A DNA stretch of 64,000 bases from Bdellovibrionales bacterium (lineage in GTDB: Bacteria > Bdellovibrionota > Bdellovibrionia > Bdellovibrionales > UBA1609): NCBI GenBank assembly GCA_965261545.1, contig CBDHDF010000007.1, forward strand, positions 64,001-128,000. The letters run 5' to 3'. Shown here in pieces: positions 14,618 to 64,000 of the stretch. The position numbers and the translations under genes are program-made. The notes beneath the pieces are model-generated. The model did not search any database, had not been told where the DNA came from, and was given only the letters and a program-made list of their open reading frames with translations. Every line of letters begins with the position of its first letter. The stretch's first letter is position 1.

Positions 14618-14720
14618 GTATCTATTCAGGGGGGCATGAGTTTACAGAGAGAGATTTATATTTTCTCTGGTAAGAAGGAGCAATTTACCTCTTGAACTCT
14701 GCTACCCCCTGAACAGTTAC
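14618..14720. mobile_element. 103-bp IS66-derived MITE
   Basis: Ends GTATCTATTCAGGGGG / CCCCCTGAACAGTTAC resemble the IS66 TIR at 54075; 8-bp TSD AAATATTT at 14610-14617 and 14721-14728. Confidence 0.85.
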
Positions 14721-17520: not shown

Positions 17521-17729
17521 AGTCTGGAGTAGATGCCACTGCCTTTCATAGGGTTTCATACGAATGAAAAGTTCTTCTTCAATTTGAGAGCATTCTTTTT
17601 TCAAAAAATCTATTCGATCAAGAATGCGTTGAAGAACAAAACGATTTTCTTCCGTCATCTTTCCCGACAGGGCGTAAGAAAATTCTTCGGTCTTTTGACG
17701 TAAAGACCCTCTGGCAAGAGACATCAATT

Positions 17730-19642
17730 CCCGAGTTTGACAGCAGCATCTGCGTCAAACGAATGATATTAAAGGATTAACGCATATAGTTGTATTTTGT
17801 TTATCCACACTTGTGGGCATTAAGGATTCTGGGAGGGATGGGGACGCCTGCGGCTTTAAATAAGGAGTTGGCATTGCCAGTGATATCTGTGCGGGTCCAA
17901 ATGACTTGATCACGAATTTTAACAGGGATAGCCCTAACTTCCTTGAGTTCCCTCATGGCCTCTACAACAGTTAAAGGTCGCTCTTTAACATGACCAATGC
18001 CTATGGCTGGGCTTTTTAGGTTCATCTTCTTATCTCTTAAACATTTTGTAAGGTGGGCCTCACAAAGATAAGTTAAAAAGCATAGAGTTAAATGTCCAAT
18101 AATCCTCTGGTCTGTCCAATGGAAAACAGGACGTGTTTTCAAAGTCCCTTTTAACTCACCAAAAGCATCTTCAATTTTCCACAATTCTTTGTAGTTGATA
18201 ATAATCTCATCTGCCGTCAAGTCTTTGACATTTGTAAGGACGGCAAAAAAACCATCAATTTTTTCATCTAATTCTATTTGTTCTGCATTTAATTCATGTT
18301 TTTTATTTTTGTCGTCAGCCATCTTTACATATTTCTTATAACCTTTATTGGAAACAAAAGTACTAGACTGAACACCTTTAGAAGATAGTTTTCCTTCGAT
18401 CTTTTCAAGAAGGGATTCTCTAGATTTTTTATCTCTCTCTGCTCTTTTCCTAGACCAAGTCACAATACATCTATGCCCCCCATGGTCTGTTTCGTAAACA
18501 GCAAGCTCATTCTCATATACCCAGCTAAAACGATTTAAATCATAGACCTCTTGTTTCTTTTCTTTTTTTAAAGATCCAAGCTTCATACCAACAATAAACT
18601 CGCTTTGATCCTCACTGAGTTTGTCAGTATTAGCCTTTGATAAAAGCCCCCTATCAGCCACAAAAATGAAACGGCGTACATTAAACTTTTTTCTCATTTT
18701 ATCAACAATATCTGAAAGCGTCTTGCCTTCAAAAGTATTACCAGGGAAAACCTCAAAACCTAAAGGGATGCCATCCCGATTCACCAACAAACCAAAGACA
18801 ACTTGGGTGCAGTCTGATCGTCTCTCTTTACTATAGCCAAATTGACGAAGTTTCCCTAAGTCTGTTCTTGTACTCTCGAAGCGTAAGGTTGTTAAATCAT
18901 ACAACACAATGTCTACTTGGAAATTAAATAAATCTCGCCCCACCCAATAAAGCGAGTTCTCTATTTCATCCTTATGGGAGGCAAGTAAGTCCATAGACCG
19001 ATAAATATGCTGGAGACTCAAATCACCCTTAATCATGTCTGGGTAAAAAGATTTTTGCCAATACTCAAAAACCTTTAACTTGGAACTAGGAGCAATAAAT
19101 CGGGTGGCAACTAAGGTAAAAATCACCTTACATAAATCAAATTGAACTTTCTCATGAGAATCTTTTATGTCTTTGAGGGTCTTATTGATACCCAGTTGAT
19201 CAAACAACTTTTGTAAAATCAGCAAGGGACCCAAAATGAAAGTCTCTTCGATGTAAAGCTCCTTAGCCAATTGACTCACAGTGAGAAGCTCTCGGTGGCG
19301 GGATACGGCCTGCGCCAAACTATTAATCTTATCCTCTCCTCCTTCTCCAGCCTTACCTAAGGACATGAGCATGCGTTTTTTGGATTTGCCTTTTTCTCTG
19401 TAGGACTCCACAAGGTGGTAGTAGCACTGACCTTTTGAGTTTTTAGTCGTTTGGATGTACATGAGGATATTTTCTACATATTTCTATGATATATCAATAT
19501 TTAAAACGATAAAATCCTATTTTGTTTTCTACACTTTTTTTACGTCAATTTTAATTTTTCCAGCAGCTACCATTATATTTCAGTACAACCCCAATTTCTG
19601 GAAATTTCGCATTTTAACGCAGATGCTGCTGTCAAACTCGGG
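17730..19642 (-). mobile_element. IS1634-family element, copy 1 (1913 bp)
   Basis: TIR CCCGAGTTTGACAGCAGCATCTGCGT; long flanking duplication. Confidence 0.92.
17801..19462 (-). CDS. IS1634-family transposase
   Basis: LYDLTT, GYSKERRSD..Q, VADRG and WKIEDAFGELK..RPVFH motifs. Confidence 0.92.
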   Translation of the reverse strand: MYIQTTKNSKGQCYYHLVESYREKGKSKKRMLMSLGKAGEGGEDKINSLAQAVSRHRELLTVSQLAKELYIEETFILGPLLILQKLFDQLGINKTLKDIKDSHEKVQFDLCKVIFTLVATRFIAPSSKLKVFEYWQKSFYPDMIKGDLSLQHIYRSMDLLASHKDEIENSLYWVGRDLFNFQVDIVLYDLTTLRFESTRTDLGKLRQFGYSKERRSDCTQVVFGLLVNRDGIPLGFEVFPGNTFEGKTLSDIVDKMRKKFNVRRFIFVADRGLLSKANTDKLSEDQSEFIVGMKLGSLKKEKKQEVYDLNRFSWVYENELAVYETDHGGHRCIVTWSRKRAERDKKSRESLLEKIEGKLSSKGVQSSTFVSNKGYKKYVKMADDKNKKHELNAEQIELDEKIDGFFAVLTNVKDLTADEIIINYKELWKIEDAFGELKGTLKTRPVFHWTDQRIIGHLTLCFLTYLCEAHLTKCLRDKKMNLKSPAIGIGHVKERPLTVVEAMRELKEVRAIPVKIRDQVIWTRTDITGNANSLFKAAGVPIPPRILNAHKCG

Positions 19643-21017
19643 AGACTTCACATTGCCTCCTATTTCTGCAATCAAAAGCGCTGCACTTAATTCGTCAATT
19701 CCAGGTATAGTCTGGAGTAGATGCCACTGCCTTTCATAGGGTTTCATACGAATGAAAAGTTCTTCTTCAATTTGAGAGCATTCTTTTTTCAAAAAATCTA
19801 TTCGATCAAGAATGCGTTGAAGAACAAAACGATTTTCTTCCGTCATCTTTCCCGACAGGGCGTAAGAAAATTCTTCGGTCTTTTGACGTAAAGACCCTCT
19901 GGCAAGAGACATCAATTTAGAAACTGATCTCTCTCCATTAGCTATGGCACGAATCATGGCCATACCAGATACGCAGTCAGCTTTAGACATTGCATAGGTT
20001 AAACGAATGCCTGAATATTCAAGAACCTTATACATACGATTTTGTTCCGAAGATATTTGGCGGATCGTTTTTGTACGATAACGAGCCAAAAGTCTAATAG
20101 AACGAATCTCACGTGGAGGAATGAAGCTAGCTCTTAGAAGACCACAAGCACCAAGCTCTGCAATCCACTGGCTATCCAACACGTCAGTTTTTTTACCAGT
20201 AATATTTTTGACATGAAAGGCATTGATAACATCTACTTCATAACCTTTTTCTGTCAAATCATCGTATAAAGAATTCCAATAAATCCCTGTGCTCTCAAAA
20301 AGAACTCTCTCAACCTTATGTGGCTTCATCCAAGAGCGCATTCTAGGAAAATTTTTTGGAAAATTCTTGAACTCTTTTGTGAAAAACTTCTTCTTACCGT
20401 CTTCCACTTTGACAATCGTACACATCAACATATGTTGATGAACATCTATTCCACAAACAGAACTATAAATAGTTCCTGTCCAGGGAAGAAAGTTAAGTAG
20501 TTTTAAGTATTTACATGCCTTCCCTTTAGATTTTATGCTTTAAAATGGAGTCCATCAAACATAATCCGTGTAAATTCAGTTACTTACATAAAACGGAAAA
20601 ATAAAATAAGTTCCCCCCCCTCTCTTGACGAACCTTTCACAGCCCCTCCCTTTCAGTGACTTATGTGGCTATCAACTGGTTACTTGATATGAGAGGAAGA
20701 GTTGGATCAACCTGTGTTTCCACCGTGGTGATTTCAAACCTCCTTCAGGGAAATAACATTACGTTGCGCATCAACTTCAAAAAATACTTGACGTGTTTTT
20801 TCAGAGAAATAATTTTTGATATTTTATTCTTCATTTATTTTTTATGTAGGTTTTAGGAGGCGTGGGAACCTCTCTATGAGGTAGAATTCTTATCCATGTT
20901 CTCCGAGAACCTCTCTGATTTTTTTCTTCTTAAAAGACATCCTTGCTCACTTTTTTCCCTCAAAAAAACGTATGTTAATATAAAAATTAAAGAGAAACTT
21001 TCACCAAAGGGGGGACT

Positions 21018-22382
21018 ATGCGCCATTTGAAGAAGACACAGTTGGGACTCTTTTCCCAATATCCTAACCACCAACTCAGTACAGAATTGCAGCAAATTAA
21101 TAACATCATTGATCGCCATCCAGAGTTTGCCCATATGGTTCATGAAGACCTTGTTAAAGAAAAGAAAGATTCTGGTGATATTGGTATGACATCGGAGCAA
21201 GTTCTCAAGGTGGCTATTCTTAAATCCATAAGAGGTCTTTCCTATCGTGCGTTAGCCTTTAATCTTGTCGATTCAGTATCCACCAGAGCTTTTCTGGGCC
21301 TTGAATTGGAAGAAAATTACGCTCACTCCACCTTACAGGACTTGATTGTTCAAATAAGTGAAGAAACTTGGGGAATTATTAGCGCCTCTTTAGTTTCAGA
21401 TGCAAGAGATCAAAAGATTGAGCCGTGTAAGAAAATGAGATTGGACAGTACAGTGACGAAATCAAATATTCATCATCCAACGGATGCATCGCTTTTATAT
21501 GACTGCATAAGAGTTACAGAAAGAGAATTTAAAAAAGTTCGTAAAAATGTCATGAAAGATTTTTGGCGACTTATTTCAAGAGAAGATCTTAAGAGAGCAA
21601 AAACCTTGCTTTACAAAATTAATAATTCCAAAAATGATGCGGAAAGACTACCTTGCTATAAGGAGCTTTTAAAAATCGCTACCAAATTGAACAAAGGATT
21701 ACCTGATACCATCAGAAAGATAAAAAAAGAACAAAAATGTGTGAAGATGAATGCTTTGAAAAAGAGTCTAAAACAGTTAGAAAATGTTGCCTTCTACCTG
21801 GAAAAAATCATCTTTCAAACTCAAAAAAGAGTTATTGAGGGGAAAAAAGTATCTTCTGAAAAAAAGGTCCTATCCATCTTTGAACCGCATACAGACATTA
21901 TTGTAAAGGGGCAAAGAGAAGTCGAGTTTGGGCATAAAATCTTTCTGACCTCAGGGCAAAGCAACATGATTTTAGATTGTCAGATCCCTGATGGCAACCC
22001 CGCAGACTCTGATATGTTTTTAAAAGTTATGAATTCAGTGACACAAACCTATGGGGCTTGCCCTGTAAAAGTAAGTGCAGATGGTGGGTTTGCTTCAAAA
22101 GAAAATCTTGAAGAGGCCAAAGAGATGGGGGCTAAAGATGTTTGCTTCCCAGAAAAAAAAGGAATGAAAATATTAAAGATGGTTAAAAGTGCTTGGGTCT
22201 TTAAAAATCTTCTCAATTGGAGAGCCGGAATAGAGGCTGTTATTTCATTCCTTAAGAGATGTTTTGGTATGAGAGTTGCTTACTGGAAAGGGCATGATGG
22301 TTTTAAGAGGTATGTAAAGAATGCCGTTTGTGCCTATAATTTTGTTGTCTTGGCAAGACATGAATTATCAACTGTCACCTAA
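21018..22382 (+). CDS. ISNCY-type DDE transposase
   Basis: RLDSTV..SNIHHPTD, SIFEPHTDII.KG, SADGGF and WRAGIEAVISFLKR motifs. Confidence 0.9.
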   Translation: MRHLKKTQLGLFSQYPNHQLSTELQQINNIIDRHPEFAHMVHEDLVKEKKDSGDIGMTSEQVLKVAILKSIRGLSYRALAFNLVDSVSTRAFLGLELEENYAHSTLQDLIVQISEETWGIISASLVSDARDQKIEPCKKMRLDSTVTKSNIHHPTDASLLYDCIRVTEREFKKVRKNVMKDFWRLISREDLKRAKTLLYKINNSKNDAERLPCYKELLKIATKLNKGLPDTIRKIKKEQKCVKMNALKKSLKQLENVAFYLEKIIFQTQKRVIEGKKVSSEKKVLSIFEPHTDIIVKGQREVEFGHKIFLTSGQSNMILDCQIPDGNPADSDMFLKVMNSVTQTYGACPVKVSADGGFASKENLEEAKEMGAKDVCFPEKKGMKILKMVKSAWVFKNLLNWRAGIEAVISFLKRCFGMRVAYWKGHDGFKRYVKNAVCAYNFVVLARHELSTVT

Positions 22383-22540
22383 ATTTATCCATTAGGAATA
22401 ACAGCAATGGACCAGGTCGAAGGTGCTAAAATCTTCCAAAGGTAGGGGTGCGTCTTCAAATCGAAAAAACTAGGGCGCAAGTCGCTTAAAGACCTTTTTC
22501 CCCTTAATCTGTAGAGTTTGTGTGGCAAATCTCCAACTCT

Positions 22541-22580
22541 CACTCCCCCATTGAGGCATTGGGAGGCTCAATGGGGAGTG
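22541..22580. terminator. GC-rich hairpin near the ISNCY 3' end (also at 46520-46559)
   Basis: CACTCCCC(C)ATTGAG ... CTCAATGGGGAGTG; terminator role not shown. Confidence 0.5.
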
Positions 22581-23147
22581 TCAGAGAACAAAAAATGGGC
22601 CTTTCTGGACAGAAACTAAATAATATCCACATGACTCCTCCTTTCTGTTAGAAAAAAAGAAGGTGATAAAACTAGAGCCTTGGGATTTTGCCATAAATTC
22701 TAAAGCGAAAATAGGTCAACTTACTATACGTCCATACACTCAGAGTGCAGGTACATGCGTGGGTTCGATCCAAAGCTCAAGACCATGTTACTTCACGGAA
22801 TTAAAATTACCAATCTATTCAACGGCCACTCATCTTATCACCTTCCAATAATGTTATTGCTTTATCCTTTATTGTATCGGAATCATACATGACAAAAATA
22901 CCATCAAAAGTCCAGAGTAACTAAAAGAGGCCAATTATATAGACCAGCGAAGCTGTCCACCGAGTTGCTTCGTGCAAAGAAGTGGGGGCCTAGATAAGAT
23001 TCATGGGCGTGGGTGGGGAAGCAAGGCGCCCCCATGAATGTTACTTCAAATGATAGGTAGTTTTGAGAGTAATAGCATAACTCTCTACGATAGGCTTTAT
23101 TTATCTACAGAGATTATTAAGGCCCATGCTCAAGCCAGTAACTTCTT

Positions 23148-49571: not shown

Positions 49572-50424
49572 CCTTCCCTCCCAGGTTGTTTTCTAGAAGG
49601 TATTTTACAATACGCCTTGTCAGATATTAAATTTTAAATGGCCTGGTTTGCCCGCCCACAAATGGCCTGGTTTGCCCTCCCCTCCGGGCATGGGCTGTGT
49701 CGATCTGTGATAAACGATCTCGACGCTGCTTATCTTCAGCTTCAAGTCGCTCTCGCATAAGTTCGTCTTGAGACAAATTCCACAAATTTTTGACGGCTCT
49801 TCCCATGTCCCTTCCTTTTTTGGCTAGCTCTTGGCTGGTTTGTTGATCCAACTCATCCGATCTCTTTAAGAAATAGCACCATGCTTCACGCTGGTCAACA
49901 AGGCTGTCTAATCTGCCAATGAACTTGTTCAATTCTACAATGACAAATTGCATACCATCGGTGAGCCTCAAATGAGGGTATCTATCCTGCCTCATGCTGC
50001 ATGTGTGGTAATAATCGTTGTCCTTGCGTAGCTCAGGAAGGTCCACAGTACTGAAAACAAGGGAATAAACAGTTCTTAATTTCTCGTATCTTTCTCCTTC
50101 TTTCACTTGATTGGAGTAGACCCGTCCAGCATAGGCAAGAAGGCGATTTGTGAAGTCTCTTTGAGAGACGGTTTGCATCTCCACATTAACAGTTTCATTT
50201 TCGACCCACTCCCCACTGGATAATTGTCGAGAAATGCGAAGCTTCATGTCCAAGATGAAGGTTTTTCCCGAAGGCTTGCTCGCCTCTGAAGAGTTTTCTT
50301 CGGTATCCAAAAGTTGAACATGTTCCACCCGACAACCGGGTGGCAAAGGAAGAAAATCCTGCAACAAAGGCTTGAGCAATTCCTGGTCATGCTTAAAAAA
50401 TGCTTTAAAAGTGTTATCAAGGGT

Positions 50425-51841
50425 CAATGCCGTTTCCTTAAGCCACCACACCCCTCTGCCTCTGCGTTAAGCTATTTCTTTTAAAAGAACTCCCAGCCCT
50501 TTTGATAGACCTTTCATAGCTTCTTTTGAAGTGCCTCCTCTTCTCCATTGAAATCTTCATCAGCAACTTTATCTGCTTCCTAAATTTCTGATAGAGCCCC
50601 GCAACAAAAAGGGGGATGCTATCCATTATGAAATCAAGAATCAGTTTAAAGTTAGGTTTTTTGTAGTCATTTTTTACCAACTGATTCACACTGTCTTCAT
50701 CCTCATTTATGCTCATTTGAATCTTTGTATAATTGAAGAGCCAAAAATAAGAATACAGCTCTTGCAATATTCCATTAAGGCTTGTTGAGTGCCACTGCTC
50801 CATTTTCATTGTCGATGTAAAATCACGAAATGTCGTTTCTATTTCCCAACGACGAGAGTAAAGAGCAACCATATCCTTCTTGTCCAAGGAGCCATGCGGA
50901 AGATTAGTGGCCAAAACAGAGAACTCCCCAGTCTTTGGGTTTTTATACTTATAGAGATGAATGACCACCCCCTCAATAACCATTTGTGAATACCAACCTG
51001 GGCCATTAAATAAATTTACGATGGGGATAAAAGTAGAGCCTCGCTTACAACGCGCAATAAAGAAGTTACTGGCTTGAGCATGGGCCTTAATAATCTCTGT
51101 AGATAAATAAAGCCTATCGTAGAGAGTTATGCTATTACTCTCAAAACTACCTATCATTTGAATAGCATTGGCGATTTCGTTGAGAGCGGGAGAATAGCAA
51201 AGATTCTTTGTCACACCCGATAAAACGTCATAAGCATGAGATAGATACATACGTAAGAAATGAGTTTCCATCTCATTTGGGCAAGGGTACCCACAATAAC
51301 CCTCCTTTAAAAGATCTTTAGAGCGAGGAAGTGCTAATTGGTCGCCATCTATGGCATAGATATAAAAGCCATGAAACGTTTTTCTCAATGGTTCGTAGTC
51401 TGTAATCAGAGATTCAAAGATATTTTTAAAAAATAGGTAAGAAATACTTTGACGTATCTTGCTGAGACTGCTTTTGACTGGCATGAGAAGCAGGTCACCA
51501 AAATGAGTCCATACCGTCTTAAGAGCGATTTGGTAGCCTTCGTAATTTGTTCCGGAAATAAGATAGATAATAGTAAAAAAGAAAATTTGAGGATTAAATT
51601 TTCGATTCCTTTTTTGTTTTTCTGGATCGACAAGGTGCTCTGGCTTGAAGGAAGAATCAAGTTTTGGTAGAATAAAATGGTCATCTGTGACGCGAACTCG
51701 TCATTTGGGGGCTTTCGAGATCAATATTGGATTGCATGTGACTTACTCCTTGGTTGAGGGTTGGGTGTAAAATAAAACAAGTCTTATTCTTGTCGATTTA
51801 TCTAATAATTTCAAGAGATTTTTCTTAAGGAAACGGCATTG
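50425..51841 (-). mobile_element. IS4-family element, copy B
   Basis: Same TIRs as copy A; non-matching flanks. Confidence 0.93.
50438..51484 (-). CDS. IS4-family transposase
   Basis: Near-identical to 16117-17163. Confidence 0.88.
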   Translation of the reverse strand: MPVKSSLSKIRQSISYLFFKNIFESLITDYEPLRKTFHGFYIYAIDGDQLALPRSKDLLKEGYCGYPCPNEMETHFLRMYLSHAYDVLSGVTKNLCYSPALNEIANAIQMIGSFESNSITLYDRLYLSTEIIKAHAQASNFFIARCKRGSTFIPIVNLFNGPGWYSQMVIEGVVIHLYKYKNPKTGEFSVLATNLPHGSLDKKDMVALYSRRWEIETTFRDFTSTMKMEQWHSTSLNGILQELYSYFWLFNYTKIQMSINEDEDSVNQLVKNDYKKPNFKLILDFIMDSIPLFVAGLYQKFRKQIKLLMKISMEKRRHFKRSYERSIKRAGSSFKRNSLTQRQRGVVA

Positions 51842-52369
51842 ACTCCAGACTATACCTGGAATTGACGAATTAAGTGCAGCGCTTTTGATTGCAGAAATAG
51901 GAGGCAATGTGAAGTCTTTTAAAAATAAAGGAAATTTTTGCTCCTGGATGGGGATTTGCCCATCCAATAATGAGAGCGCAGGAAAAAAAGTCTTCACGAA
52001 CGAGGAAAGCGAACACATATGTGAAATCGTTGGTATGTGAGATGGCCAATAGTGCTATTAAGACGAATTCACAATTCAAAGGCAAATACCAATCACTTGT
52101 TATAAGGCGTGGGCACAAGAGATCAGTGATTGCCGTTGGTCACAAAATGATGGGAGTTGTTTATTCAGTCATAAGTAATGACACCCCCTACAAAGACCCT
52201 GGAATTGACTATGAAAAGCTCATGGTGAAAAAAAATGCACCAAGGTGGATTAGAGCGTTAAAAAAGTATGATTTCATGTAATGTAGGATGATTTAAAAAC
52301 TCGGACATTTGAAAAAATTCGAAGAACGGATAGTGGATTCGTGCGTCCAAACTACCCCGGAGATTCATA
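51842..52369 (+). mobile_element. IS110 element 3' half (A7 frameshift allele)
   Basis: Matches the 3' part of 52370-54074 apart from the A-run. Confidence 0.92.
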
Positions 52370-52568
52370 GTAACATTCATGGGGGCGCCTTGCTTCCCCA
52401 CCCACGCCCATGAATCTTATCTAGGCCCCCACTTCTTTGCACGAAGCAACTCGGTGGACAGCTTCGCTGGTCTATATAATTGGCCTCTTTTAGTTACTCT
52501 GGACTTTTGATTGTATTTTTGTCATGTATGATTCCGATACAATAAAGGATAAAGCAATAACATTATTG

Positions 52569-52755
52569 GAAGGTGATAAGATGAGTGGCCGTTGAATAGA
52601 TTGGTAATTTTAATTCCGTGAAGTAACATGGTCTTGAGCTTTGGATCGAACCCACGCATGTACCTGCACTCTGAGTGTATGGACGTATAGTAAGTTGACC
52701 TATTTTCGCTTTAGAATTTATGGCAAAATCCCAAGGCTCTAGTTTTATCACCTTC
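52569..52755 (+). ncRNA. Candidate IS110 bridge RNA (minus-strand copies at 22659-22845, 58534-58720, 60258-60444, 62116-62302, 63818->64000)
   Basis: 11-bp closing stem GAAGGTGATAA/TTATCACCTTC; two inner stem-loops with segments matching the target and donor junctions; directly upstream of the recombinase. Confidence 0.7.
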
Positions 52756-52783
52756 TTTTTTTCTAACAGAAAGGAGGAGTCAT

Positions 52784-53986
52784 GTGGATATTATTTATAG
52801 TTCTGTTTGTGGAATAGATGTTCATCAACATATGTTGATGTGTACGATTGTCAAAGTGGAAGACGGTAAGAAGAAGTTTTTCACAAAAGAGTTCAAGAAT
52901 TTTCCAAAAAATTTTCCTAGAATGCGCTCTTGGATGAAGCCACATAAGGTTGAGAGAGTTCTTTTTGAGAGCACAGGGATTTATTGGAATTCTTTATACG
53001 ATGATTTGACAGAAAAAGGTTATGAAGTAGATGTTATCAATGCCTTTCATGTCAAAAATATTACTGGTAAAAAAACTGACGTGTTGGATAGCCAGTGGAT
53101 TGCAGAGCTTGGTGCTTGTGGTCTTCTAAGAGCTAGCTTCATTCCTCCACGTGAGATTCGTTCTATTAGACTTTTGGCTCGTTATCGTACAAAAACGATC
53201 CGCCAAATATCTTCGGAACAAAATCGTATGTATAAGGTTCTTGAATATTCAGGCATTCGTTTAACCTATGCAATGTCTAAAGCTGACTGCGTATCTGGTA
53301 TGGCCATGATTCGTGCCATAGCTAATGGAGAGAGATCAGTTTCTAAATTGATGTCTCTTGCCAGAGGGTCTTTACGTCAAAAGACCGAAGAATTTTCTTA
53401 CGCCCTGTCGGGAAAGATGACGGAAGAAAATCGTTTTGTTCTTCAACGCATTCTTGATCGAATAGATTTTTTGAAAAAAGAATGCTCTCAAATTGAAGAA
53501 GAACTTTTCATTCGTATGAAACCCTATGAAAGGCAGTGGCATCTACTCCAGACTATACCTGGAATTGACGAATTAAGTGCAGCGCTTTTGATTGCAGAAA
53601 TAGGAGGCAATGTGAAGTCTTTTAAAAATAAAGGAAATTTTTGCTCCTGGATGGGGATTTGCCCATCCAATAATGAGAGCGCAGGAAAAAAAAAGTCTTC
53701 ACGAACGAGGAAAGCGAACACATATGTGAAATCGTTGGTATGTGAGATGGCCAATAGTGCTATTAAGACGAATTCACAATTCAAAGGCAAATACCAATCA
53801 CTTGTTATAAGGCGTGGGCACAAGAGATCAGTGATTGCCGTTGGTCACAAAATGATGGGAGTTGTTTATTCAGTCATAAGTAATGACACCCCCTACAAAG
53901 ACCCTGGAATTGACTATGAAAAGCTCATGGTGAAAAAAAATGCACCAAGGTGGATTAGAGCGTTAAAAAAGTATGATTTCATGTAA
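52784..53986 (+). CDS. IS110-family DEDD recombinase (400 aa)
   Basis: GIDVH, ESTGIYW, KTDVLD, TIPGI and NESAGK motifs; AGGAGG RBS. Confidence 0.95.
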   Translation: MDIIYSSVCGIDVHQHMLMCTIVKVEDGKKKFFTKEFKNFPKNFPRMRSWMKPHKVERVLFESTGIYWNSLYDDLTEKGYEVDVINAFHVKNITGKKTDVLDSQWIAELGACGLLRASFIPPREIRSIRLLARYRTKTIRQISSEQNRMYKVLEYSGIRLTYAMSKADCVSGMAMIRAIANGERSVSKLMSLARGSLRQKTEEFSYALSGKMTEENRFVLQRILDRIDFLKKECSQIEEELFIRMKPYERQWHLLQTIPGIDELSAALLIAEIGGNVKSFKNKGNFCSWMGICPSNNESAGKKKSSRTRKANTYVKSLVCEMANSAIKTNSQFKGKYQSLVIRRGHKRSVIAVGHKMMGVVYSVISNDTPYKDPGIDYEKLMVKKNAPRWIRALKKYDFM

Positions 53987-54348
53987 TGTAGGATGATTTA
54001 AAAACTCGGACATTTGAAAAAATTCGAAGAACGGATAGTGGATTCGTGCGTCCAAACTACCCCGGAGATTCATAGTAACTATTCAGGGGGTGCTGCATTA
54101 ATTCGAACAATTTTTTTAAAAAAAGTATAAAAATTCTTGACAAGTTTTTGAAGCAAACGACCTCTTTCATTTGTTCTTTATCGAATATGTTCCTGCATAT
54201 GCCTTAAACTCTCTGAGAGCCATAGTATTGAAAGATTGTGAAACATAGGTCGCGGGGGGCACTTCTCATTCCTTTTGCTTCTTAGAACGAATCCTAGTGC
54301 ATTTTTTTTAATGAAAAAAAGGCATGTTAATATTTTCATAAGGTAAGT

Positions 54349-55800
54349 ATGAAAATAGAAAATATTGACGTGTCTTCAGCCATAAATAAAATCAGGAAGC
54401 TTCTTAAGAAAGAGAAGTCCCTTTCTCCCGCTTTTATTGTGGCCATTGAGTTGTTGATCAAAATCATCACTATTCTAGTAAATCAAAAAAAATTAAATAG
54501 TCAAAACAGTAGTATTGCCCCTTCTCAAGATCCGAATGGCCCTAAAAAGAAACCTAAGGAAGAAACTGGTAAGAAGCCAGGAGGACAACCCGGACACGAA
54601 GGAGCTACTTTAAAACCCGTGGATACTCCAGACAAGGTGGAGTTCATTTCTATTAATAAAGAGGAACTTCCTCCAGGTGATTACATTTCTTCTGGAGTTG
54701 AAAAGCGTCAAGTATTTGAGGTAGACCTTTCTGTGCATGTCACGGAGTATCAAGGAGAAATCCTCGAAGACCAAGATGGGAATCAGTGGGTTGCAGGTTT
54801 TCCAGAAGGAATCAATAACCCAACTCAATATGGCCCTTCTGTGAAAGCTCACTCAGTTTATATGTCCCAGTTTCAGTTAATCCCTCATCTTCGAGTCGCA
54901 AGTTACTTTAATCAATGGGGTCTATCGCTTGCTGGATCTACGGTACACAATTTTAACAAATCTGCCTTTGAGGCTCTGGAAGCTTTTGAGGAGTGGGCAA
55001 AGGAAACTCTTCTGAACTCACCTTTGATTCATGCTGACGAAACTGGAGTGAATGTTAATGGGAAGAGGCTGTGGTTTCACCTCTTGTCCAATGATACTGT
55101 GGTTCTCTATCAGGTGGACGAAAAAAGAGGCGCAGAGGCTATGGATCGCATGGGAATTCTTCCAAAATACACAGGGATTGTTTGTCATGACCATTGGAAA
55201 CCTTATTATACATATACTTCCTGCATTCATGCCCTTTGCAATGCGCACCATTTAAGGGAGCTTCAAAGAGCTTGGGAGCAAGATGATCAAAAATGGGCAA
55301 AAGAAATGAAGTCTCTTTTAGAGACAATAAACAAAGAGGTGCACGATACGCAGAACCAATGCCTTTCACAAGACCGAATTGAATATTACAAAGAGAAATA
55401 TCGAAATATTCTCTTCGAAGGGGAAAAGGAATCTCCATTAATGGAGAGGACAGAGAAAAAAAAGAAGGGAAAGGTTAAACAATCCAAATCTAGAAATTTA
55501 CTAGATCGACTGAGAAACTTTGAAGATGATACCTTGCTATTTATGAAGGACCCCATAGTTCCATTTACGAATAATATAGCAGAAAATGATCTGAGAATGA
55601 CCAAAGTTCAGCAGAAAATATCTGGGTGCTTTCGTTCGTTGATGGGAGCCAAGACATTTTGTAGAAACCGAAGCTTTCTCCTGACTTGCCAGAAAAATGG
55701 CATAGAACCTAAAGATGCTCTAAATATGCTATTTCAAGGAAAACTTCCCTCATTTATGACTCGAATTCGCCCACCCCCTGAATCAATGCCGTTTCCTTAA
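54349..55800 (+). CDS. IS66 transposase TnpC-like (C-terminus altered by IS4)
   Basis: NSSIAPSQD, GGQPGHEG, HADETG, CNAHHLREL and TNNIAENDLR..K..QKISG motifs. Confidence 0.93.
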   Translation: MKIENIDVSSAINKIRKLLKKEKSLSPAFIVAIELLIKIITILVNQKKLNSQNSSIAPSQDPNGPKKKPKEETGKKPGGQPGHEGATLKPVDTPDKVEFISINKEELPPGDYISSGVEKRQVFEVDLSVHVTEYQGEILEDQDGNQWVAGFPEGINNPTQYGPSVKAHSVYMSQFQLIPHLRVASYFNQWGLSLAGSTVHNFNKSAFEALEAFEEWAKETLLNSPLIHADETGVNVNGKRLWFHLLSNDTVVLYQVDEKRGAEAMDRMGILPKYTGIVCHDHWKPYYTYTSCIHALCNAHHLRELQRAWEQDDQKWAKEMKSLLETINKEVHDTQNQCLSQDRIEYYKEKYRNILFEGEKESPLMERTEKKKKGKVKQSKSRNLLDRLRNFEDDTLLFMKDPIVPFTNNIAENDLRMTKVQQKISGCFRSLMGAKTFCRNRSFLLTCQKNGIEPKDALNMLFQGKLPSFMTRIRPPPESMPFP

Positions 55801-57200
55801 GAAAAATCTCTTGAAATCATTAGATAAATCGACAAGAATAAGACTTGTTTTATTTTACACCCAACCCTCAACCAAGGAGTAAGTCACATGCAATCCAATA
55901 TTGATCTCGAAAGCCCCCAAATGACGAGTTCGCGTCACAGATGACCATTTTATTCTACCAAAACTTGATTCTTCCTTCAAGCCAGAGCACCTTGTCGATC
56001 CAGAAAAACAAAAAAGGAATCGAAAATTTAATCCTCAAATTTTCTTTTTTACCATTATCTATCTTATTTCCGGAACAAATTACGAAGGCTACCAAATCGC
56101 TCTTAAGACGGTATGGACTCATTTTGGTGACCTGCTTCTCATGCCAGTCAAAAGCAGTCTCAGCAAGATACGTCAAAGTATTTCTTACCTATTTTTCAAA
56201 GATATCTTTGAATCTCTGATTACAGACTACGAACCATTGAGAAAAACGTTTCATGGTTTTTATATCTATGCCATAGATGGCGACCAATTAGCACTTCCTC
56301 GCTCTAAAGATCTTTTAAAGGAGGGTTATTGTGGGTACCCTTGCCCAAATGAGATGGAAACTCATTTCTTACGTATGTATCTATCTCATGCTTATGACGT
56401 TTTATCGGGTGTGACAAAGAATCTTTGCTATTCTCCCGCTCTCAACGAAATCGCCAATGCTATTCAAATGATAGGTAGTTTTGAGAGTAATAGCATAACT
56501 CTCTACGATAGGCTTTATTTATCTACAGAGATTATTAAGGCCCATGCTCAAGCCAGTAACTTCTTTATTGCGCGTTGTAAGCGAGGCTCTACTTTTATCC
56601 CCATTGTAAATTTATTTAATGGCCCAGGTTGGTATTCACGAATGGTTATTGAGGGGGTGGTCATTCATCTCTATAAGTATAAAAACCCAAAGACTGGGGA
56701 GTTCTCTGTTTTGGCCACTAATCTTCCGCATGGCTCCTTGGACAAGAAGGATATGGTTGCTCTTTACTCTCGTCGTTGGGAAATAGAAACGACATTTCGT
56801 GATTTTACATCGACAATGAAAATGGAGCAGTGGCACTCAACAAGCCTTAATGGAATATTGCAAGAGCTGTATTCTTATTTTTGGCTCTTCAATTATACAA
56901 AGATTCAAATGAGCATAAATGAGGATGAAGACAGTGTGAATCAGTTGGTAAAAAATGACTACAAAAAACCTAACTTTAAACTGATTCTTGATTTCATAAT
57001 GGATAGCATCCCTCTTTTTGTTGCGGGGCTCTATCAGAAATTTAGGAAGCAGATAAAGTTGCTGATGAAGATTTCAATGGAGAAGAGGAGGCACTTCAAA
57101 AGAAGCTATGAAAGGTCTATCAAAAGGGCTGGGAGTTCTTTTAAAAGAAATAGCTTAACGCAGAGGCAGAGGGGTGTGGTGGCTTAAGGAAACGGCATTG
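55784..57200 (+). mobile_element. IS4-family element, copy D
   Basis: TIRs as copy A; 10-bp TSD CCCCCTGAAT at 55774-55783 and 57201-57210. Confidence 0.95.
56141..57187 (+). CDS. IS4-family transposase
   Basis: Near-identical to the other copies. Confidence 0.88.
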   Translation: MPVKSSLSKIRQSISYLFFKDIFESLITDYEPLRKTFHGFYIYAIDGDQLALPRSKDLLKEGYCGYPCPNEMETHFLRMYLSHAYDVLSGVTKNLCYSPALNEIANAIQMIGSFESNSITLYDRLYLSTEIIKAHAQASNFFIARCKRGSTFIPIVNLFNGPGWYSRMVIEGVVIHLYKYKNPKTGEFSVLATNLPHGSLDKKDMVALYSRRWEIETTFRDFTSTMKMEQWHSTSLNGILQELYSYFWLFNYTKIQMSINEDEDSVNQLVKNDYKKPNFKLILDFIMDSIPLFVAGLYQKFRKQIKLLMKISMEKRRHFKRSYERSIKRAGSSFKRNSLTQRQRGVVA

Positions 57201-57216
57201 CCCCCTGAATAGTTAC

Positions 57217-58918
57217 TATGAATCTCCGGGGTAGTTTGGACGCACGAATCCACTATCCGTTCTTCGAATTTTTTCAAATGTCCGAGTTTTTAAATCATCC
57301 TACATTACATGAAATCATACTTTTTTAACGCTCTAATCCACCTTGGTGCATTTTTTTTCACCATGAGCTTTTCATAGTCAATTCCAGGGTCTTTGTAGGG
57401 GGTGTCATTACTTATGACTGAATAAACAACTCCCATCATTTTGTGACCAACGGCAATCACTGATCTCTTGTGCCCACGCCTTATAACAAGTGATTGGTAT
57501 TTGCCTTTGAATTGTGAATTCGTCTTAATAGCACTATTGGCCATCTCACATACCAACGATTTCACATATGTGTTCGCTTTCCTCGTTCGTGAAGACTTTT
57601 TTTCCTGCGCTCTCATTATTGGATGGGCAAATCCCCATCCAGGAGCAAAAATTTCCTTTATTTTTAAAAGACTTCACATTGCCTCCTATTTCTGCAATCA
57701 AAAGCGCTGCACTTAATTCGTCAATTCCAGGTATAGTCTGGAGTAGATGCCACTGCCTTTCATAGGGTTTCATACGAATGAAAAGTTCTTCTTCAATTTG
57801 AGAGCATTCTTTTTTCAAAAAATCTATTCGATCAAGAATGCGTTGAAGAACAAAACGATTTTCTTCCGTCATCTTTCCCGACAGGGCGTAAGAAAATTCT
57901 TCGGTCTTTTGACGTAAAGACCCTCTGGCAAGAGACATCAATTTAGAAACTGATCTCTCTCCATTAGCTATGGCACGAATCATGGCCATACCAGATACGC
58001 AGTCAGCTTTAGACATTGCATAGGTTAAACGAATGCCTGAATATTCAAGAACCTTATACATACGATTTTGTTCCGAAGATATTTGGCGGATCGTTTTTGT
58101 ACGATAACGAGCCAAAAGTCTAATAGAACGAATCTCACGTGGAGGAATGAAGCTAGCTCTTAGAAGACCACAAGCACCAAGCTCTGCAATCCACTGGCTA
58201 TCCAACACGTCAGTTTTTTTACCAGTAATATTTTTGACATGAAAGGCATTGATAACATCTACTTCATAACCTTTTTCTGTCAAATCATCGTATAAAGAAT
58301 TCCAATAAATCCCTGTGCTCTCAAAAAGAACTCTCTCAACCTTATGTGGCTTCATCCAAGAGCGCATTCTAGGAAAATTTTTTGGAAAATTCTTGAACTC
58401 TTTTGTGAAAAACTTCTTCTTACCGTCTTCCACTTTGACAATCGTACACATCAACATATGTTGATGAACATCTATTCCACAAACAGAACTATAAATAATA
58501 TCCACATGACTCCTCCTTTCTGTTAGAAAAAAAGAAGGTGATAAAACTAGAGCCTTGGGATTTTGCCATAAATTCTAAAGCGAAAATAGGTCAACTTACT
58601 ATACGTCCATACACTCAGAGTGCAGGTACATGCGTGGGTTCGATCCAAAGCTCAAGACCATGTTACTTCACGGAATTAAAATTACCAATCTATTCAACGG
58701 CCACTCATCTTATCACCTTCCAATAATGTTATTGCTTTATCCTTTATTGTATCGGAATCATACATGACAAAAATACCATCAAAAGTCCAGAGTAACTAAA
58801 AGAGGCCAATTATATAGACCAGCGAAGCTGTCCACCGAGTTGCTTCGTGCAAAGAAGTGGGGGCCTAGAAAGATTCATGGGCGTGGGTGGGGAAGCAAGG
58901 CGCCCCCATGAATGTTAC
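57217..58918 (-). mobile_element. IS110 array copy 1 (1702 bp; recombinase 58505-57305 frameshifted)
   Basis: Reverse complement of 52370-54074; A7 instead of A9. Confidence 0.93.
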
Positions 58919-58940
58919 TATGAATCTCCGGGGTAGTTAC
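58919..58940 (-). repeat. 22-bp IS110 right-end stub
   Basis: TATGAATCTCCGGGGTAGTTAC between copies 1 and 2. Confidence 0.9.
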
Positions 58941-60642
58941 TATGAATCTCCGGGGTAGTTTGGACGCACGAATCCACTATCCGTTCTTCGAATTTTTTCA
59001 AATGTCCGAGTTTTTAAATCATCCTACATTACATGAAATCATACTTTTTTAACGCTCTAATCCACCTTGGTGCATTTTTTTTCACCATGAGCTTTTCATA
59101 GTCAATTCCAGGGTCTTTGTAGGGGGTGTCATTACTTATGACTGAATAAACAACTCCCATCATTTTGTGACCAACGGCAATCACTGATCTCTTGTGCCCA
59201 CGCCTTATAACAAGTGATTGGTATTTGCCTTTGAATTGTGAATTCGTCTTAATAGCACTATTGGCCATCTCACATACCAACGATTTCACATATGTGTTCG
59301 CTTTCCTCGTTCGTGAAGACTTTTTTTCCTGCGCTCTCATTATTGGATGGGCAAATCCCCATCCAGGAGCAAAAATTTCCTTTATTTTTAAAAGACTTCA
59401 CATTGCCTCCTATTTCTGCAATCAAAAGCGCTGCACTTAATTCGTCAATTCCAGGTATAGTCTGGAGTAGATGCCACTGCCTTTCATAGGGTTTCATACG
59501 AATGAAAAGTTCTTCTTCAATTTGAGAGCATTCTTTTTTCAAAAAATCTATTCGATCAAGAATGCGTTGAAGAACAAAACGATTTTCTTCCGTCATCTTT
59601 CCCGACAGGGCGTAAGAAAATTCTTCGGTCTTTTGACGTAAAGACCCTCTGGCAAGAGACATCAATTTAGAAACTGATCTCTCTCCATTAGCTATGGCAC
59701 GAATCATGGCCATACCAGATACGCAGTCAGCTTTAGACATTGCATAGGTTAAACGAATGCCTGAATATTCAAGAACCTTATACATACGATTTTGTTCCGA
59801 AGATATTTGGCGGATCGTTTTTGTACGATAACGAGCCAAAAGTCTAATAGAACGAATCTCACGTGGAGGAATGAAGCTAGCTCTTAGAAGACCACAAGCA
59901 CCAAGCTCTGCAATCCACTGGCTATCCAACACGTCAGTTTTTTTACCAGTAATATTTTTGACATGAAAGGCATTGATAACATCTACTTCATAACCTTTTT
60001 CTGTCAAATCATCGTATAAAGAATTCCAATAAATCCCTGTGCTCTCAAAAAGAACTCTCTCAACCTTATGTGGCTTCATCCAAGAGCGCATTCTAGGAAA
60101 ATTTTTTGGAAAATTCTTGAACTCTTTTGTGAAAAACTTCTTCTTACCGTCTTCCACTTTGACAATCGTACACATCAACATATGTTGATGAACATCTATT
60201 CCACAAACAGAACTATAAATAATATCCACATGACTCCTCCTTTCTGTTAGAAAAAAAGAAGGTGATAAAACTAGAGCCTTGGGATTTTGCCATAAATTCT
60301 AAAGCGAAAATAGGTCAACTTACTATACGTCCATACACTCAGAGTGCAGGTACATGCGTGGGTTCGATCCAAAGCTCAAGACCATGTTACTTCACGGAAT
60401 TAAAATTACCAATCTATTCAACGGCCACTCATCTTATCACCTTCCAATAATGTTATTGCTTTATCCTTTATTGTATCGGAATCATACATGACAAAAATAC
60501 CATCAAAAGTCCAGAGTAACTAAAAGAGGCCAATTATATAGACCAGCGAAGCTGTCCACCGAGTTGCTTCGTGCAAAGAAGTGGGGGCCTAGAAAGATTC
60601 ATGGGCGTGGGTGGGGAAGCAAGGCGCCCCCATGAATGTTAC
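58941..60642 (-). mobile_element. IS110 array copy 2 (frameshifted)
   Basis: As copy 1. Confidence 0.93.
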
Positions 60643-60798
60643 TATGAATCTCCGGGGTAGTTTGGACGCACGAATCCACTATCCGTTCTTCGAATTTTTT
60701 CAAATGTCCGAGTTTTTAAATCATCCTACATTACATGAAATCATACTTTTTTAACGCTCTAATCCACCTTGGTGCATTTTTTTTCACCATGAGCTTAC
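60643..60798 (-). repeat. 156-bp IS110 right-end stub
   Basis: Right-end sequence up to CACCATGAGCTT, then AC and the next copy. Confidence 0.9.
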
Positions 60799-62500
60799 TA
60801 TGAATCTCCGGGGTAGTTTGGACGCACGAATCCACTATCCGTTCTTCGAATTTTTTCAAATGTCCGAGTTTTTAAATCATCCTACATTACATGAAATCAT
60901 ACTTTTTTAACGCTCTAATCCACCTTGGTGCATTTTTTTTCACCATGAGCTTTTCATAGTCAATTCCAGGGTCTTTGTAGGGGGTGTCATTACTTATGAC
61001 TGAATAAACAACTCCCATCATTTTGTGACCAACGGCAATCACTGATCTCTTGTGCCCACGCCTTATAACAAGTGATTGGTATTTGCCTTTGAATTGTGAA
61101 TTCGTCTTAATAGCACTATTGGCCATCTCACATACCAACGATTTCACATATGTGTTCGCTTTCCTCGTTCGTGAAGACTTTTTTTCCTGCGCTCTCATTA
61201 TTGGATGGGCAAATCCCCATCCAGGAGCAAAAATTTCCTTTATTTTTAAAAGACTTCACATTGCCTCCTATTTCTGCAATCAAAAGCGCTGCACTTAATT
61301 CGTCAATTCCAGGTATAGTCTGGAGTAGATGCCACTGCCTTTCATAGGGTTTCATACGAATGAAAAGTTCTTCTTCAATTTGAGAGCATTCTTTTTTCAA
61401 AAAATCTATTCGATCAAGAATGCGTTGAAGAACAAAACGATTTTCTTCCGTCATCTTTCCCGACAGGGCGTAAGAAAATTCTTCGGTCTTTTGACGTAAA
61501 GACCCTCTGGCAAGAGACATCAATTTAGAAACTGATCTCTCTCCATTAGCTATGGCACGAATCATGGCCATACCAGATACGCAGTCAGCTTTAGACATTG
61601 CATAGGTTAAACGAATGCCTGAATATTCAAGAACCTTATACATACGATTTTGTTCCGAAGATATTTGGCGGATCGTTTTTGTACGATAACGAGCCAAAAG
61701 TCTAATAGAACGAATCTCACGTGGAGGAATGAAGCTAGCTCTTAGAAGACCACAAGCACCAAGCTCTGCAATCCACTGGCTATCCAACACGTCAGTTTTT
61801 TTACCAGTAATATTTTTGACATGAAAGGCATTGATAACATCTACTTCATAACCTTTTTCTGTCAAATCATCGTATAAAGAATTCCAATAAATCCCTGTGC
61901 TCTCAAAAAGAACTCTCTCAACCTTATGTGGCTTCATCCAAGAGCGCATTCTAGGAAAATTTTTTGGAAAATTCTTGAACTCTTTTGTGAAAAACTTCTT
62001 CTTACCGTCTTCCACTTTGACAATCGTACACATCAACATATGTTGATGAACATCTATTCCACAAACAGAACTATAAATAATATCCACATGACTCCTCCTT
62101 TCTGTTAGAAAAAAAGAAGGTGATAAAACTAGAGCCTTGGGATTTTGCCATAAATTCTAAAGCGAAAATAGGTCAACTTACTATACGTCCATACACTCAG
62201 AGTGCAGGTACATGCGTGGGTTCGATCCAAAGCTCAAGACCATGTTACTTCACGGAATTAAAATTACCAATCTATTCAACGGCCACTCATCTTATCACCT
62301 TCCAATAATGTTATTGCTTTATCCTTTATTGTATCGGAATCATACATGACAAAAATACCATCAAAAGTCCAGAGTAACTAAAAGAGGCCAATTATATAGA
62401 CCAGCGAAGCTGTCCACCGAGTTGCTTCGTGCAAAGAAGTGGGGGCCTAGAAAGATTCATGGGCGTGGGTGGGGAAGCAAGGCGCCCCCATGAATGTTAC
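60799..62500 (-). mobile_element. IS110 array copy 3 (frameshifted)
   Basis: As copy 1. Confidence 0.93.
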
Positions 62501-64000
62501 TATGAATCTCCGGGGTAGTTTGGACGCACGAATCCACTATCCGTTCTTCGAATTTTTTCAAATGTCCGAGTTTTTAAATCATCCTACATTACATGAAATC
62601 ATACTTTTTTAACGCTCTAATCCACCTTGGTGCATTTTTTTTCACCATGAGCTTTTCATAGTCAATTCCAGGGTCTTTGTAGGGGGTGTCATTACTTATG
62701 ACTGAATAAACAACTCCCATCATTTTGTGACCAACGGCAATCACTGATCTCTTGTGCCCACGCCTTATAACAAGTGATTGGTATTTGCCTTTGAATTGTG
62801 AATTCGTCTTAATAGCACTATTGGCCATCTCACATACCAACGATTTCACATATGTGTTCGCTTTCCTCGTTCGTGAAGACTTTTTTTCCTGCGCTCTCAT
62901 TATTGGATGGGCAAATCCCCATCCAGGAGCAAAAATTTCCTTTATTTTTAAAAGACTTCACATTGCCTCCTATTTCTGCAATCAAAAGCGCTGCACTTAA
63001 TTCGTCAATTCCAGGTATAGTCTGGAGTAGATGCCACTGCCTTTCATAGGGTTTCATACGAATGAAAAGTTCTTCTTCAATTTGAGAGCATTCTTTTTTC
63101 AAAAAATCTATTCGATCAAGAATGCGTTGAAGAACAAAACGATTTTCTTCCGTCATCTTTCCCGACAGGGCGTAAGAAAATTCTTCGGTCTTTTGACGTA
63201 AAGACCCTCTGGCAAGAGACATCAATTTAGAAACTGATCTCTCTCCATTAGCTATGGCACGAATCATGGCCATACCAGATACGCAGTCAGCTTTAGACAT
63301 TGCATAGGTTAAACGAATGCCTGAATATTCAAGAACCTTATACATACGATTTTGTTCCGAAGATATTTGGCGGATCGTTTTTGTACGATAACGAGCCAAA
63401 AGTCTAATAGAACGAATCTCACGTGGAGGAATGAAGCTAGCTCTTAGAAGACCACAAGCACCAAGCTCTGCAATCCACTGGCTATCCAACACGTCAGTTT
63501 TTTTACCAGTAATATTTTTGACATGAAAGGCATTGATAACATCTACTTCATAACCTTTTTCTGTCAAATCATCGTATAAAGAATTCCAATAAATCCCTGT
63601 GCTCTCAAAAAGAACTCTCTCAACCTTATGTGGCTTCATCCAAGAGCGCATTCTAGGAAAATTTTTTGGAAAATTCTTGAACTCTTTTGTGAAAAACTTC
63701 TTCTTACCGTCTTCCACTTTGACAATCGTACACATCAACATATGTTGATGAACATCTATTCCACAAACAGAACTATAAATAATATCCACATGACTCCTCC
63801 TTTCTGTTAGAAAAAAAGAAGGTGATAAAACTAGAGCCTTGGGATTTTGCCATAAATTCTAAAGCGAAAATAGGTCAACTTACTATACGTCCATACACTC
63901 AGAGTGCAGGTACATGCGTGGGTTCGATCCAAAGCTCAAGACCATGTTACTTCACGGAATTAAAATTACCAATCTATTCAACGGCCACTCATCTTATCAC
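62501..64000 (-). mobile_element. IS110 array copy 4 (frameshifted; runs off window)
   Basis: As copy 1, directly head-to-tail with copy 3. Confidence 0.92.

What the first reader, a model, noticed from the sequence alone, without database searches (positions are those of the whole stretch)
52370..58918. IS110 element occupying both terminal inverted repeats of an IS66 element
Seen: each IS66 end (GTAACTATTCAGGGGG at 54075; its reverse complement ending at 57216) is joined through the shared GTAAC to an IS110 right end (...GGAGATTCATA|GTAAC), giving an inverted IS110>IS66<IS110 arrangement with no TSD. The displaced left flank can be recovered at 23040-23052 (reverse complement CATTTGAA-GTAAC-left end), so the original target was CATTTGAA GTAAC TATTCAGG. 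Known: IS110-family recombinases are RNA-guided, and IS4321/IS5075 target Tn21-type TIRs. Inference: this is an RNA-guided IS that targets IS66 ends, a pairing I do not know to be described.
Basis: partly seen in the sequence, partly recalled or inferred. Interest (0 to 1): 0.88.

Follow-up and report, generated by a model that had tools for sequence, protein, structure and literature searches.

The report
RNA-guided IS110 docking at IS66 tips
A small jumping gene whose predicted guide RNA matches the first eleven bases of another jumping gene's end lands at that tip without breaking it; homing on other elements' ends is a known habit, but this particular partner and the intact end were not found in print.

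Summary
Observation confirmed; the structure is larger than flagged. A 1.71-kb IS110-family element abuts both ends of a single-gene (ISBst12-type) IS66, in tandem arrays (two copies left, four right), and the IS66's 8-bp duplication survives outside them. Genome-wide, 15 of 33 tips of this IS66 carry the element, against 0 of 18 tips of a second IS66. Of 37 right-end junctions, 15 meet an intact tip, 10 are tandem, 9 are self-insertions or local duplications and 3 start like the tip. The left end holds a bridge-RNA-like target loop: one strand is the exact complement of TIR bases 5-11, the other matches bases 1-4. Guides covary with flanks across 29 relatives; the multi-copy ones examined do not target IS66 ends. 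The donor ends in the same four bases as the tip, so insertion leaves TIR and target intact. Guide order is IS1111-like despite the left-end location. No RNA or activity was tested. Targeting of mobile-element ends is known (IS4321/IS5075). This scan noted the same element before, and an archaeal one inside IS66-MITE ends. New variant of a known kind.

The parts
52370..54079 (+). IS110-family element, intact copy (L1), joined to the IS66 left tip
   Evidence: multi-copy boundaries; short-read contig 52461-54079 without gaps
52784..53986 (+). IS110 recombinase, 400 aa; D12, E62, D99, D102 and S299 conserved
52587..52633 (+). predicted bridge-RNA target-binding loop (outer stem 52587-52592/52628-52633, inner stem 52603-52607/52614-52617)
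   Evidence: alignment A2; pair counts
52593..52599 (+). right-target guide: exact reverse complement of IS66 TIR bases 5-11 (54079-54085)
   Evidence: register tested in relatives
52618..52626 (+). left-target guide: last four bases equal TIR bases 1-4
   Evidence: covariation with left flanks
52686..52693 (+). donor guide matching the last bases of the right end (7 of 8)
52410..52417 (+). sub-terminal inverted repeat, left arm (partner 54066-54073)
   Evidence: read; similar arms in relatives
54066..54073 (+). sub-terminal inverted repeat, right arm
   Evidence: read
54075..55783 (+). IS66-family single-gene element (ISBst12 type; here IS66-A), left TIR intact at 54075-54090
54349..55800 (+). 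IS66 transposase ORF, 483 aa (last codons run into the inserted IS4)
55784..57200 (+). IS4-family element inserted in the IS66 right TIR, 10-bp duplication
57201..57216 (-). outer 16 bp of the IS66 right TIR, intact
57212..58918 (-). IS110 copy R1, joined to the IS66 right tip (two bases short in an A run; probably an assembly error)
58914..58940 (-). 22-bp duplication of the IS110 right end between R1 and R2
58936..60642 (-). IS110 copy R2 (tandem)
60638..60796 (-). 159-bp duplication of the IS110 3' part
60795..62500 (-). IS110 copy R3 (tandem)
62496..64000 (-). IS110 copy R4 (tandem); its left end lies at C7:128203, past the window
51842..52374 (+). right part of IS110 copy L2 (tandem with L1), cut by an IS4 element at 50425-51841
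22617..23044 (-). displaced left end of copy L2; further pieces at 19643-20471 and 17521-17729
23045..23052 (.). one copy of the IS66 8-bp target duplication, in an IS4-like gene; partner just past the window

Best explanation
An IS110-family bridge recombinase element whose target loop is set to the first eleven bases of one ISBst12-type IS66 end. Steps. (1) Shown in sequence: the element moves with fixed ends around a two-adenine core and has sub-terminal inverted repeats. (2) Shown by comparison, not by assay: the left non-coding end forms a conserved two-stem loop; its 3' strand matches the bases left of the core and its 5' strand is complementary to the bases right of it. Here they spell TIR bases 1-4 and 5-11. 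(3) Inferred from family knowledge: the RNA-recombinase complex joins the donor (joined right and left ends) to that site. (4) Shown in sequence: the donor's last four bases equal TIR bases 1-4, so after insertion the IS66 keeps a complete TIR and the target is re-created at the right joint. (5) Inferred: repeated insertion at the re-created site, and one-ended reactions at nearby adenine pairs, build the tandem arrays and short duplications. The IS66 serves as a renewable landing site outside host genes.
For: 15 of 33 IS66-A tips occupied; 0 of 18 IS66-C, 0 of 13 M2-MITE, 1 of 11 M1-MITE (by a mini element), 0 of 3 IS66-B tips. 16 of 37 right joints match TIR bases 5-11 exactly; background 36 of 25,461. 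The chance of that 7-mer in the loop register is about 1.6e-4. Left guide versus flank in 29 relatives: 102 matches against 62.4, 0 of 20,000 permutations; right guide 56 against 39.6, 7 of 20,000, n=26. Stems: 7 of 10 pairs with changes on both sides, 0 of 500 shuffles. Eight composites are bounded by one 8-bp duplication and, with one possible exception, carry different allele combinations. A 106-bp non-coding mini element with the same ends also sits at IS66-type tips. A close relative (88 differing letters over about 780 in its longest piece) keeps both guides with one change while the inner stem and guide extension change.
Against: No RNA data and no activity test. The lone sequence does not fold into this loop (z 0.90), and no promoter-like site was found across the joined ends. 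The base next to the right guide cannot pair with the core of the commonest target. Eight self or duplication sites match the right guide at only 0-4 of 7. This element needs register 8, the relatives score best at register 7 (register 8: 47 against 36.7, 165 of 20,000), and six registers were tried. Relatives are not independent, and I drew the structure from these same sequences. Tandems also occur in a relative whose target is not re-created (G042). All flank counts come from one genome.
Confidence: 0.85

Rival explanations
1. Few IS110 insertions, many copies: the IS66 transposase moved IS110-IS66 composites, using the IS110 left end as a stand-in TIR, so that the association is inflated and partly hitch-hiking. 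This can hold alongside guided insertion.
For: The outer left-end tip matches the IS66-A tip at 11 of 16 positions, including the first five bases and a G run at the same distance; relatives score 6-10. Three 44-51-bp elements bounded by such tips carry exact 8-bp duplications. At 12 of 15 left ends with a paralogous empty site, the empty site lacks the tip bases, as expected if either an IS66 or a composite arrived there.
Against: Composites differ in allele combination and in which end is occupied; only one pair (C2:466049, C7:313173) shares its informative alleles (gene conversion weakens this test). The left end is a family-type IS110 end, not a captured TIR. The short elements can arise by deletion of a doubly occupied IS66 between short direct repeats (inference). 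Clean IS110 self-insertions show that it moves by itself.
Confidence: 0.25
2. Targeting is by protein or by DNA structure (recombinase preference, or recruitment by the IS66 transposase at its ends), and the guide match is incidental.
For: In multi-copy relatives the right flank is barely constrained, so the 5' loop strand is often a weak guide. No RNA was seen.
Against: Other IS66 elements with the same first bases are unoccupied. The loop strand is an exact 7-base complement, and guides covary with flanks across the clade. A relative with a different guide leaves the tip of a related IS66 free and sits about 100 bp inside it.
Confidence: 0.07
3. Assembly artefact or homologous recombination between repeats created the joints and arrays.
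For: The genome is repeat-rich and many copies show A-run length differences.
Against: Joints are base-precise at both IS66 ends and at many loci, with matching 8-bp duplications. A contig from the probable source sample spans the tandem joint at a depth of 29.5 against 107.7 for the element. A contig from another study runs 13 bases from the right end into the TIR, too short to count as bridging.
Confidence: 0.03

Closest known systems
IS4321 / IS5075 (IS1111 group), which target the TIRs of Tn21-family transposons (title seen in the reference list of PMC11208160; the paper itself not read)
   Same: IS110-family element homing on the terminal repeat of another mobile element.
   Different: They have a right-end RNA and, as I recall, insert inside the 38-bp repeat and interrupt it. 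This element has a left-end RNA, targets an IS66 end and leaves the TIR complete.
IS621 and ISCro4 bridge recombinases (PMC11208160, passages and section 12; PDB 8wt6, 9t56)
   Same: DEDD plus serine recombinase, long left end with target and donor loops, short core; an 11-base target split 7 + 2 + 2.
   Different: Only distantly related (E 2.7e-15 and 1.5e-13), 400 aa against about 330. The top-strand guide comes before the bottom-strand guide, the order that PMC11187229 reports for IS1111 types. The sub-terminal repeats are 8 bp against 2-3 bp.
ISEc21 (IS110 group; PMC11187229, passages)
   Same: Left-end RNA; targets another IS family.
   Different: Its target lies in the IS3 transposase gene, not at an end; opposite guide order.
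Expanded and tandem IS110 loci (bioRxiv 10.64898/2026.08.14.744561; part 1 of 7 and passages)
   Same: Tandem modules and repeat units that keep only the left-donor match, as in the nine self and duplication joints here.
   Different: [quoted passage not shown]
ISBst12 group of IS66, e.g. ISDge4 (PMC12898284, passages)
   Same: The host element: single ORF, similar TIR start, 8-bp direct repeat.
   Different: This is the target, not the guided element.

Membership tests
IS110 family | N-terminal DEDD domain (PF01548) and C-terminal PF02371 domain with conserved serine | tested here: met
   PF01548 82.1 bits, PF02371 75.6 bits, NF033542 245.5 over cut-off 140; D12, E62, D99, D102, S299 conserved
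IS110 family | No terminal inverted repeats and no target duplication; short shared core | tested here: met
   Clean self-insertions keep only a 2-4-base shared core; the 8-bp duplications belong to the IS66
IS110 family | Non-coding end with guides for target and donor | tested here: met
   Computational only:
IS110 family | RNA is expressed, binds the recombinase and directs recombination | not testable with these tools
   No RNA run listed
IS110 family | Circular intermediate with a promoter across the joined ends | tested here: inconclusive
   Joined ends exist as chromosomal tandems and cannot be told from circles; no promoter-like site found
IS110 group (IS621/ISEc21 type) | Long left end that holds the RNA | tested here: met
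   Left end about 410 bp, right end about 90 bp
IS110 group (IS621/ISEc21 type) | Bottom-strand guide precedes top-strand guide (PMC11187229) | tested here: not met
   Top-strand complement at 52593 precedes the bottom-strand guide at 52618; same order in relatives
IS1111 group | RNA in the right end, downstream of the transposase | tested here: not met
   Guides lie upstream
IS1111 group | Sub-terminal inverted repeats 7-17 bp long, 7 and 3 bp from the ends | tested here: inconclusive
   8-bp repeat present, but the left arm lies about 36 bp inside
IS1111 group | Transposase of 330-350 aa in the IS1111 branch | tested here: not met
   400 aa; no tree with named members was built
IS66, ISBst12 group (host element) | Single ORF with PF03050, short TIRs, 8-bp duplication | tested here: met
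   four unoccupied copies with exact 8-bp duplications

The most novel reading that the evidence does not exclude
The element has become a benign hitch-hiker of IS66: it docks at the tip, restores the TIR and its own target, and its outer left end works as a replacement IS66 end, so that the IS66 transposase can carry the IS110 copy with it. It would also represent an uncharacterised bridge-RNA clade with a left-end RNA in IS1111-like guide order.
Probability: 0.25. Interest if true: 0.75.

Novelty: new variant of a known kind. Interest (0 to 1): 0.5.

Why it matters
It is an unusually clean natural case of guide programming: relatives with the same RNA scaffold use little more than four to six bases left of the core, while this one has a seven-base guide for an IS66 end. 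Donor and target overlap so that the target survives insertion, which a 2026 preprint says IS110 insertion does not do. That offers a simple route to tandem arrays and a test case for iterative insertion at one site. The reversed guide order in a left-end RNA points to a bridge-recombinase clade for which I found no characterised member. If the left end also works as an IS66 end, two transposition systems would be chained.

Tried and rejected
Close relatives with flanks: none by single-protein scan of genome contigs, none at E 1e-60 in 400 genomes of the phylum, junction pattern in 0 of 108 other genomes of the family. The 34 viral matches to a junction pattern had no hit to either transposase. 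No RNA holder listed. Preference of the five-base guide extension for occupied flanks: not seen (mean 1.15, n=26, against 1.06, n=18). The idea that the left end is a captured IS66 MITE: rejected, relatives have the same left-end layout. A 65-bp piece of the left end shared with another repeat first looked like a guide; it lies outside the conserved loop. Copying of whole composites by IS66: not shown. IS66 transposase hits lay in 5 of 219 relative loci, all one genome; in the two loci read the IS110 relative is inside the IS66 leader, not at the tip. A named ISfinder member of the clade was not found by four peptide words in one supplement that was cut when stored. A final scripted re-check of motif coordinates and a significance test of tandem counts were not done; coordinates are read.
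Full report
OBSERVATION. The window holds an IS110-family element at 52370-54079 (400-aa protein; PF01548, PF02371, NF033542), a single-gene IS66 at 54075-55783 (PF03050, NF033517) and an inverted IS110 copy at 57212-58918. The 16-bp IS66 end occurs exactly at 54075-54090 and 57201-57216, with none expected by chance. An IS4-family element (55784-57200) interrupts the right TIR with a 10-bp duplication, leaving its outer 16 bp whole. The arrangement extends beyond the flagged interval: a second, broken copy on the left and four copies on the right, the last ending 203 bases past the window. The left part of the broken copy was inverted to 17521-23044. The 8 bases at 23045-23052 and the flank at C7:128203 are one IS66-type duplication inside an IS4-like gene.

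GENOME-WIDE TEST. All 37 right-end joints of the full element were listed. 15 meet an intact IS66-A tip. Two start like the tip and are then cut by other repeats, and one matches 6 of 7. Ten are head-to-tail tandems, 6 join sites inside the element itself and 3 duplicate neighbouring flank. In all, 16 of 37 match TIR bases 5-11 exactly, against 36 of 25,461 sites with the same first four bases. Seen from the target side, 15 of 33 IS66-A tips are occupied, against 0 of 18 tips of a second IS66 (C), 0 of 13 and 1 of 11 tips of two MITE-end types, and 0 of 3 of a third IS66 whose end pattern was partly guessed (Fisher p 0.0004, 0.004 and 0.008, the last counting full elements only). The MITE counts are inflated by one MITE copied inside a repeat. 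One left end sits where a paralogous site has an M2 MITE tip, so that variant may have been hit once; another sits at a native core in an unrelated repeat. Eight composites on one contig are bounded by an 8-bp duplication, four with both ends occupied and four with one; four IS66-A copies are free. Allele combinations differ among composites except one pair, which suggests mostly separate insertions, though gene conversion weakens this. A 106-bp non-coding mini element with related ends was found 6 times; 3 copies (2 events) abut IS66-type tips.

THE GUIDE. Of 159 loci of relatives (31-48% identity), 42 share the right-end motif. After dropping duplicates and loci without a usable loop or left end, 29 distinct target loops remained. 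Their left ends share a two-stem internal loop: 88% of cells pair, 7 of 10 pairs change on both sides, 0 of 500 shuffles reach this, and slid controls reach at most 56% (I drew the structure from these sequences, and the lone sequence does not fold this way). The 3' strand of the loop tracks the left flank: 102 matches against 62.4, 0 of 20,000 permutations. In a Methylomarinum genome all 25 distinct left flanks from 30 of 44 copies end in the guide's four bases, and a one-base guide change between genomes G042 and G043/G044 is mirrored in their flanks. The 5' strand tracks the right flank more weakly (best of six registers: 56 against 39.6, 7 of 20,000, n=26). These tests overstate significance because relatives are not independent. 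In the window's element the 5' strand (52593-52599) is the exact complement of TIR bases 5-11 and the 3' strand ends in TIR bases 1-4; the chance is about 0.03 anywhere in the left end and 1.6e-4 in register. The five-base extension of the left guide shows no effect on which ends are used. A donor guide at 52686-52693 matches the right end, as in 36 of the 42 relatives. A close relative in runs X6/X7 (88 differing letters over about 780 in its longest piece) has a one-base change in the right guide, the same four-base left guide and paired changes in the inner stem. Its guide would fit the IS66 tip at L203:1402, but its own flanks were not seen.

MECHANISM. Shown in sequence: fixed ends, a two-adenine core, and donor and target that share the four bases up to the core (4 shared bases in 2 of 29 relatives, 2-3 in the rest). 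Insertion therefore leaves the TIR complete and re-creates the 11-base target at the right joint. Inferred: RNA-guided insertion as in IS621 (PMC11208160), repeated at the re-created site to give tandems. Support is partial: 10 of 37 joints are exact tandems here, none among 44 Methylomarinum matches where the target is not re-created (read from coordinates), but two occur in G042, and homologous integration of circles gives the same product. The self and duplication joints fit the one-ended reactions described in bioRxiv 10.1101/2025.10.25.684509 (sections 5 and 8 read) and 10.64898/2026.08.14.744561 (part 1 of 7 and passages); eight such sites match the right guide at 0-4 of 7.

RIVALS. Hitch-hiking on IS66 remains open: the outer tip resembles the TIR (11 of 16; relatives 6-10) and three short elements with such tips have exact 8-bp duplications, a fourth does not, but deletion of a doubly occupied IS66 explains them too. 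Protein-only targeting is disfavoured by the unoccupied IS66 types and by covariation. An artefact is disfavoured by the duplications and by contigs that span the tandem joint (the best run may be the assembly's own sample).

COMPARISON. It is an IS110-family member by domains, ends and core. It has the left-end RNA of the IS110 group but the guide order that PMC11187229 (sections 4, 6, 13 and passages read) reports for IS1111 types, plus an 8-bp sub-terminal repeat; it fits neither group cleanly. Targeting of other elements is known: IS4321/IS5075 at Tn21 TIRs (title only; position inside the repeat recalled) and ISEc21 in IS3 genes. Seven literature searches and one supplement search (one file unreadable, one cut) gave no description of an IS110 that targets IS66 ends; the term IS66 has 0 occurrences in PMC11208160, PMC11187229 and the 2026 preprint. 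Subscription papers, ISfinder and TnPedia were not searchable, figures were not visible, and preprint supplements were closed, so a prior record may exist. PMC13626964 was seen as abstract and outline only; PMC12898284 as passages. Earlier scan notes (unchecked) report the same element in this genome, an archaeal element inside IS66-MITE ends, and others at IS3, IS6 and IS256 ends, which makes the habit look common.

VERDICT. Real, well supported within one genome, mechanism inferred. New variant of a known kind; interest 0.5.

Noticed in passing
window 53686-53695 and other IS110 copies: More than half of the near-complete copies lack one or two bases in an A run and look frameshifted; the short-read contig shows no gap, so these are probably assembly errors. 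Three relatives (P0005, P0006, P0015) break at the same run, so slippage is not excluded.
   Followed up: partly
window 52453-52517 and 12052-12116: A 65-bp piece of the IS110 left end is shared with another repeat of about 815 bp present in more than 40 copies; its nature was not resolved.
   Followed up: partly
window 55784-57200; genome-wide: An IS4-family element with about 120 copies and a loose palindromic target also lands in the G run of IS66-type TIRs in a few cases.
   Followed up: partly
window 14618-14720: A 103-bp IS66-type MITE, unoccupied, with identical flanks at six places in the genome.
   Followed up: partly
G000:C2:618619, C6:99928, C10:204619: 44-51-bp elements bounded by IS110-left-end-like tips with exact 8-bp duplications: either MITEs moved by IS66 or collapse scars of doubly occupied IS66 copies.
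   Followed up: partly
G000:C7:226760-232573 and C7:311413-314881: IS110 copies repeated together with 342 bp or 47 bp of neighbouring DNA, i.e. local amplification from one-ended reactions.
   Followed up: partly
G000:C1:7607-13240, C7:115835, C7:348517-351652: An IS4 element interrupts the IS110 at the same position (about base 1176-1185) at three loci: a hot spot or a nested unit.
   Followed up: no
G000:C7:186683, C2:600896 and their copies: Two other IS110-family elements with three copies each; targets not worked out.
   Followed up: partly
L203:1402-3260, L196, L038: In Methylomarinum a relative sits about 100 bp inside the leader of an IS66 (42-63% identical to IS66-A in pieces) at two loci, leaving the tip free; L038 holds the empty allele.
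   Followed up: yes
window 49627-50451: A PD-(D/E)XK nuclease-family (PF12784) gene truncated by the neighbouring IS4 element.
   Followed up: no
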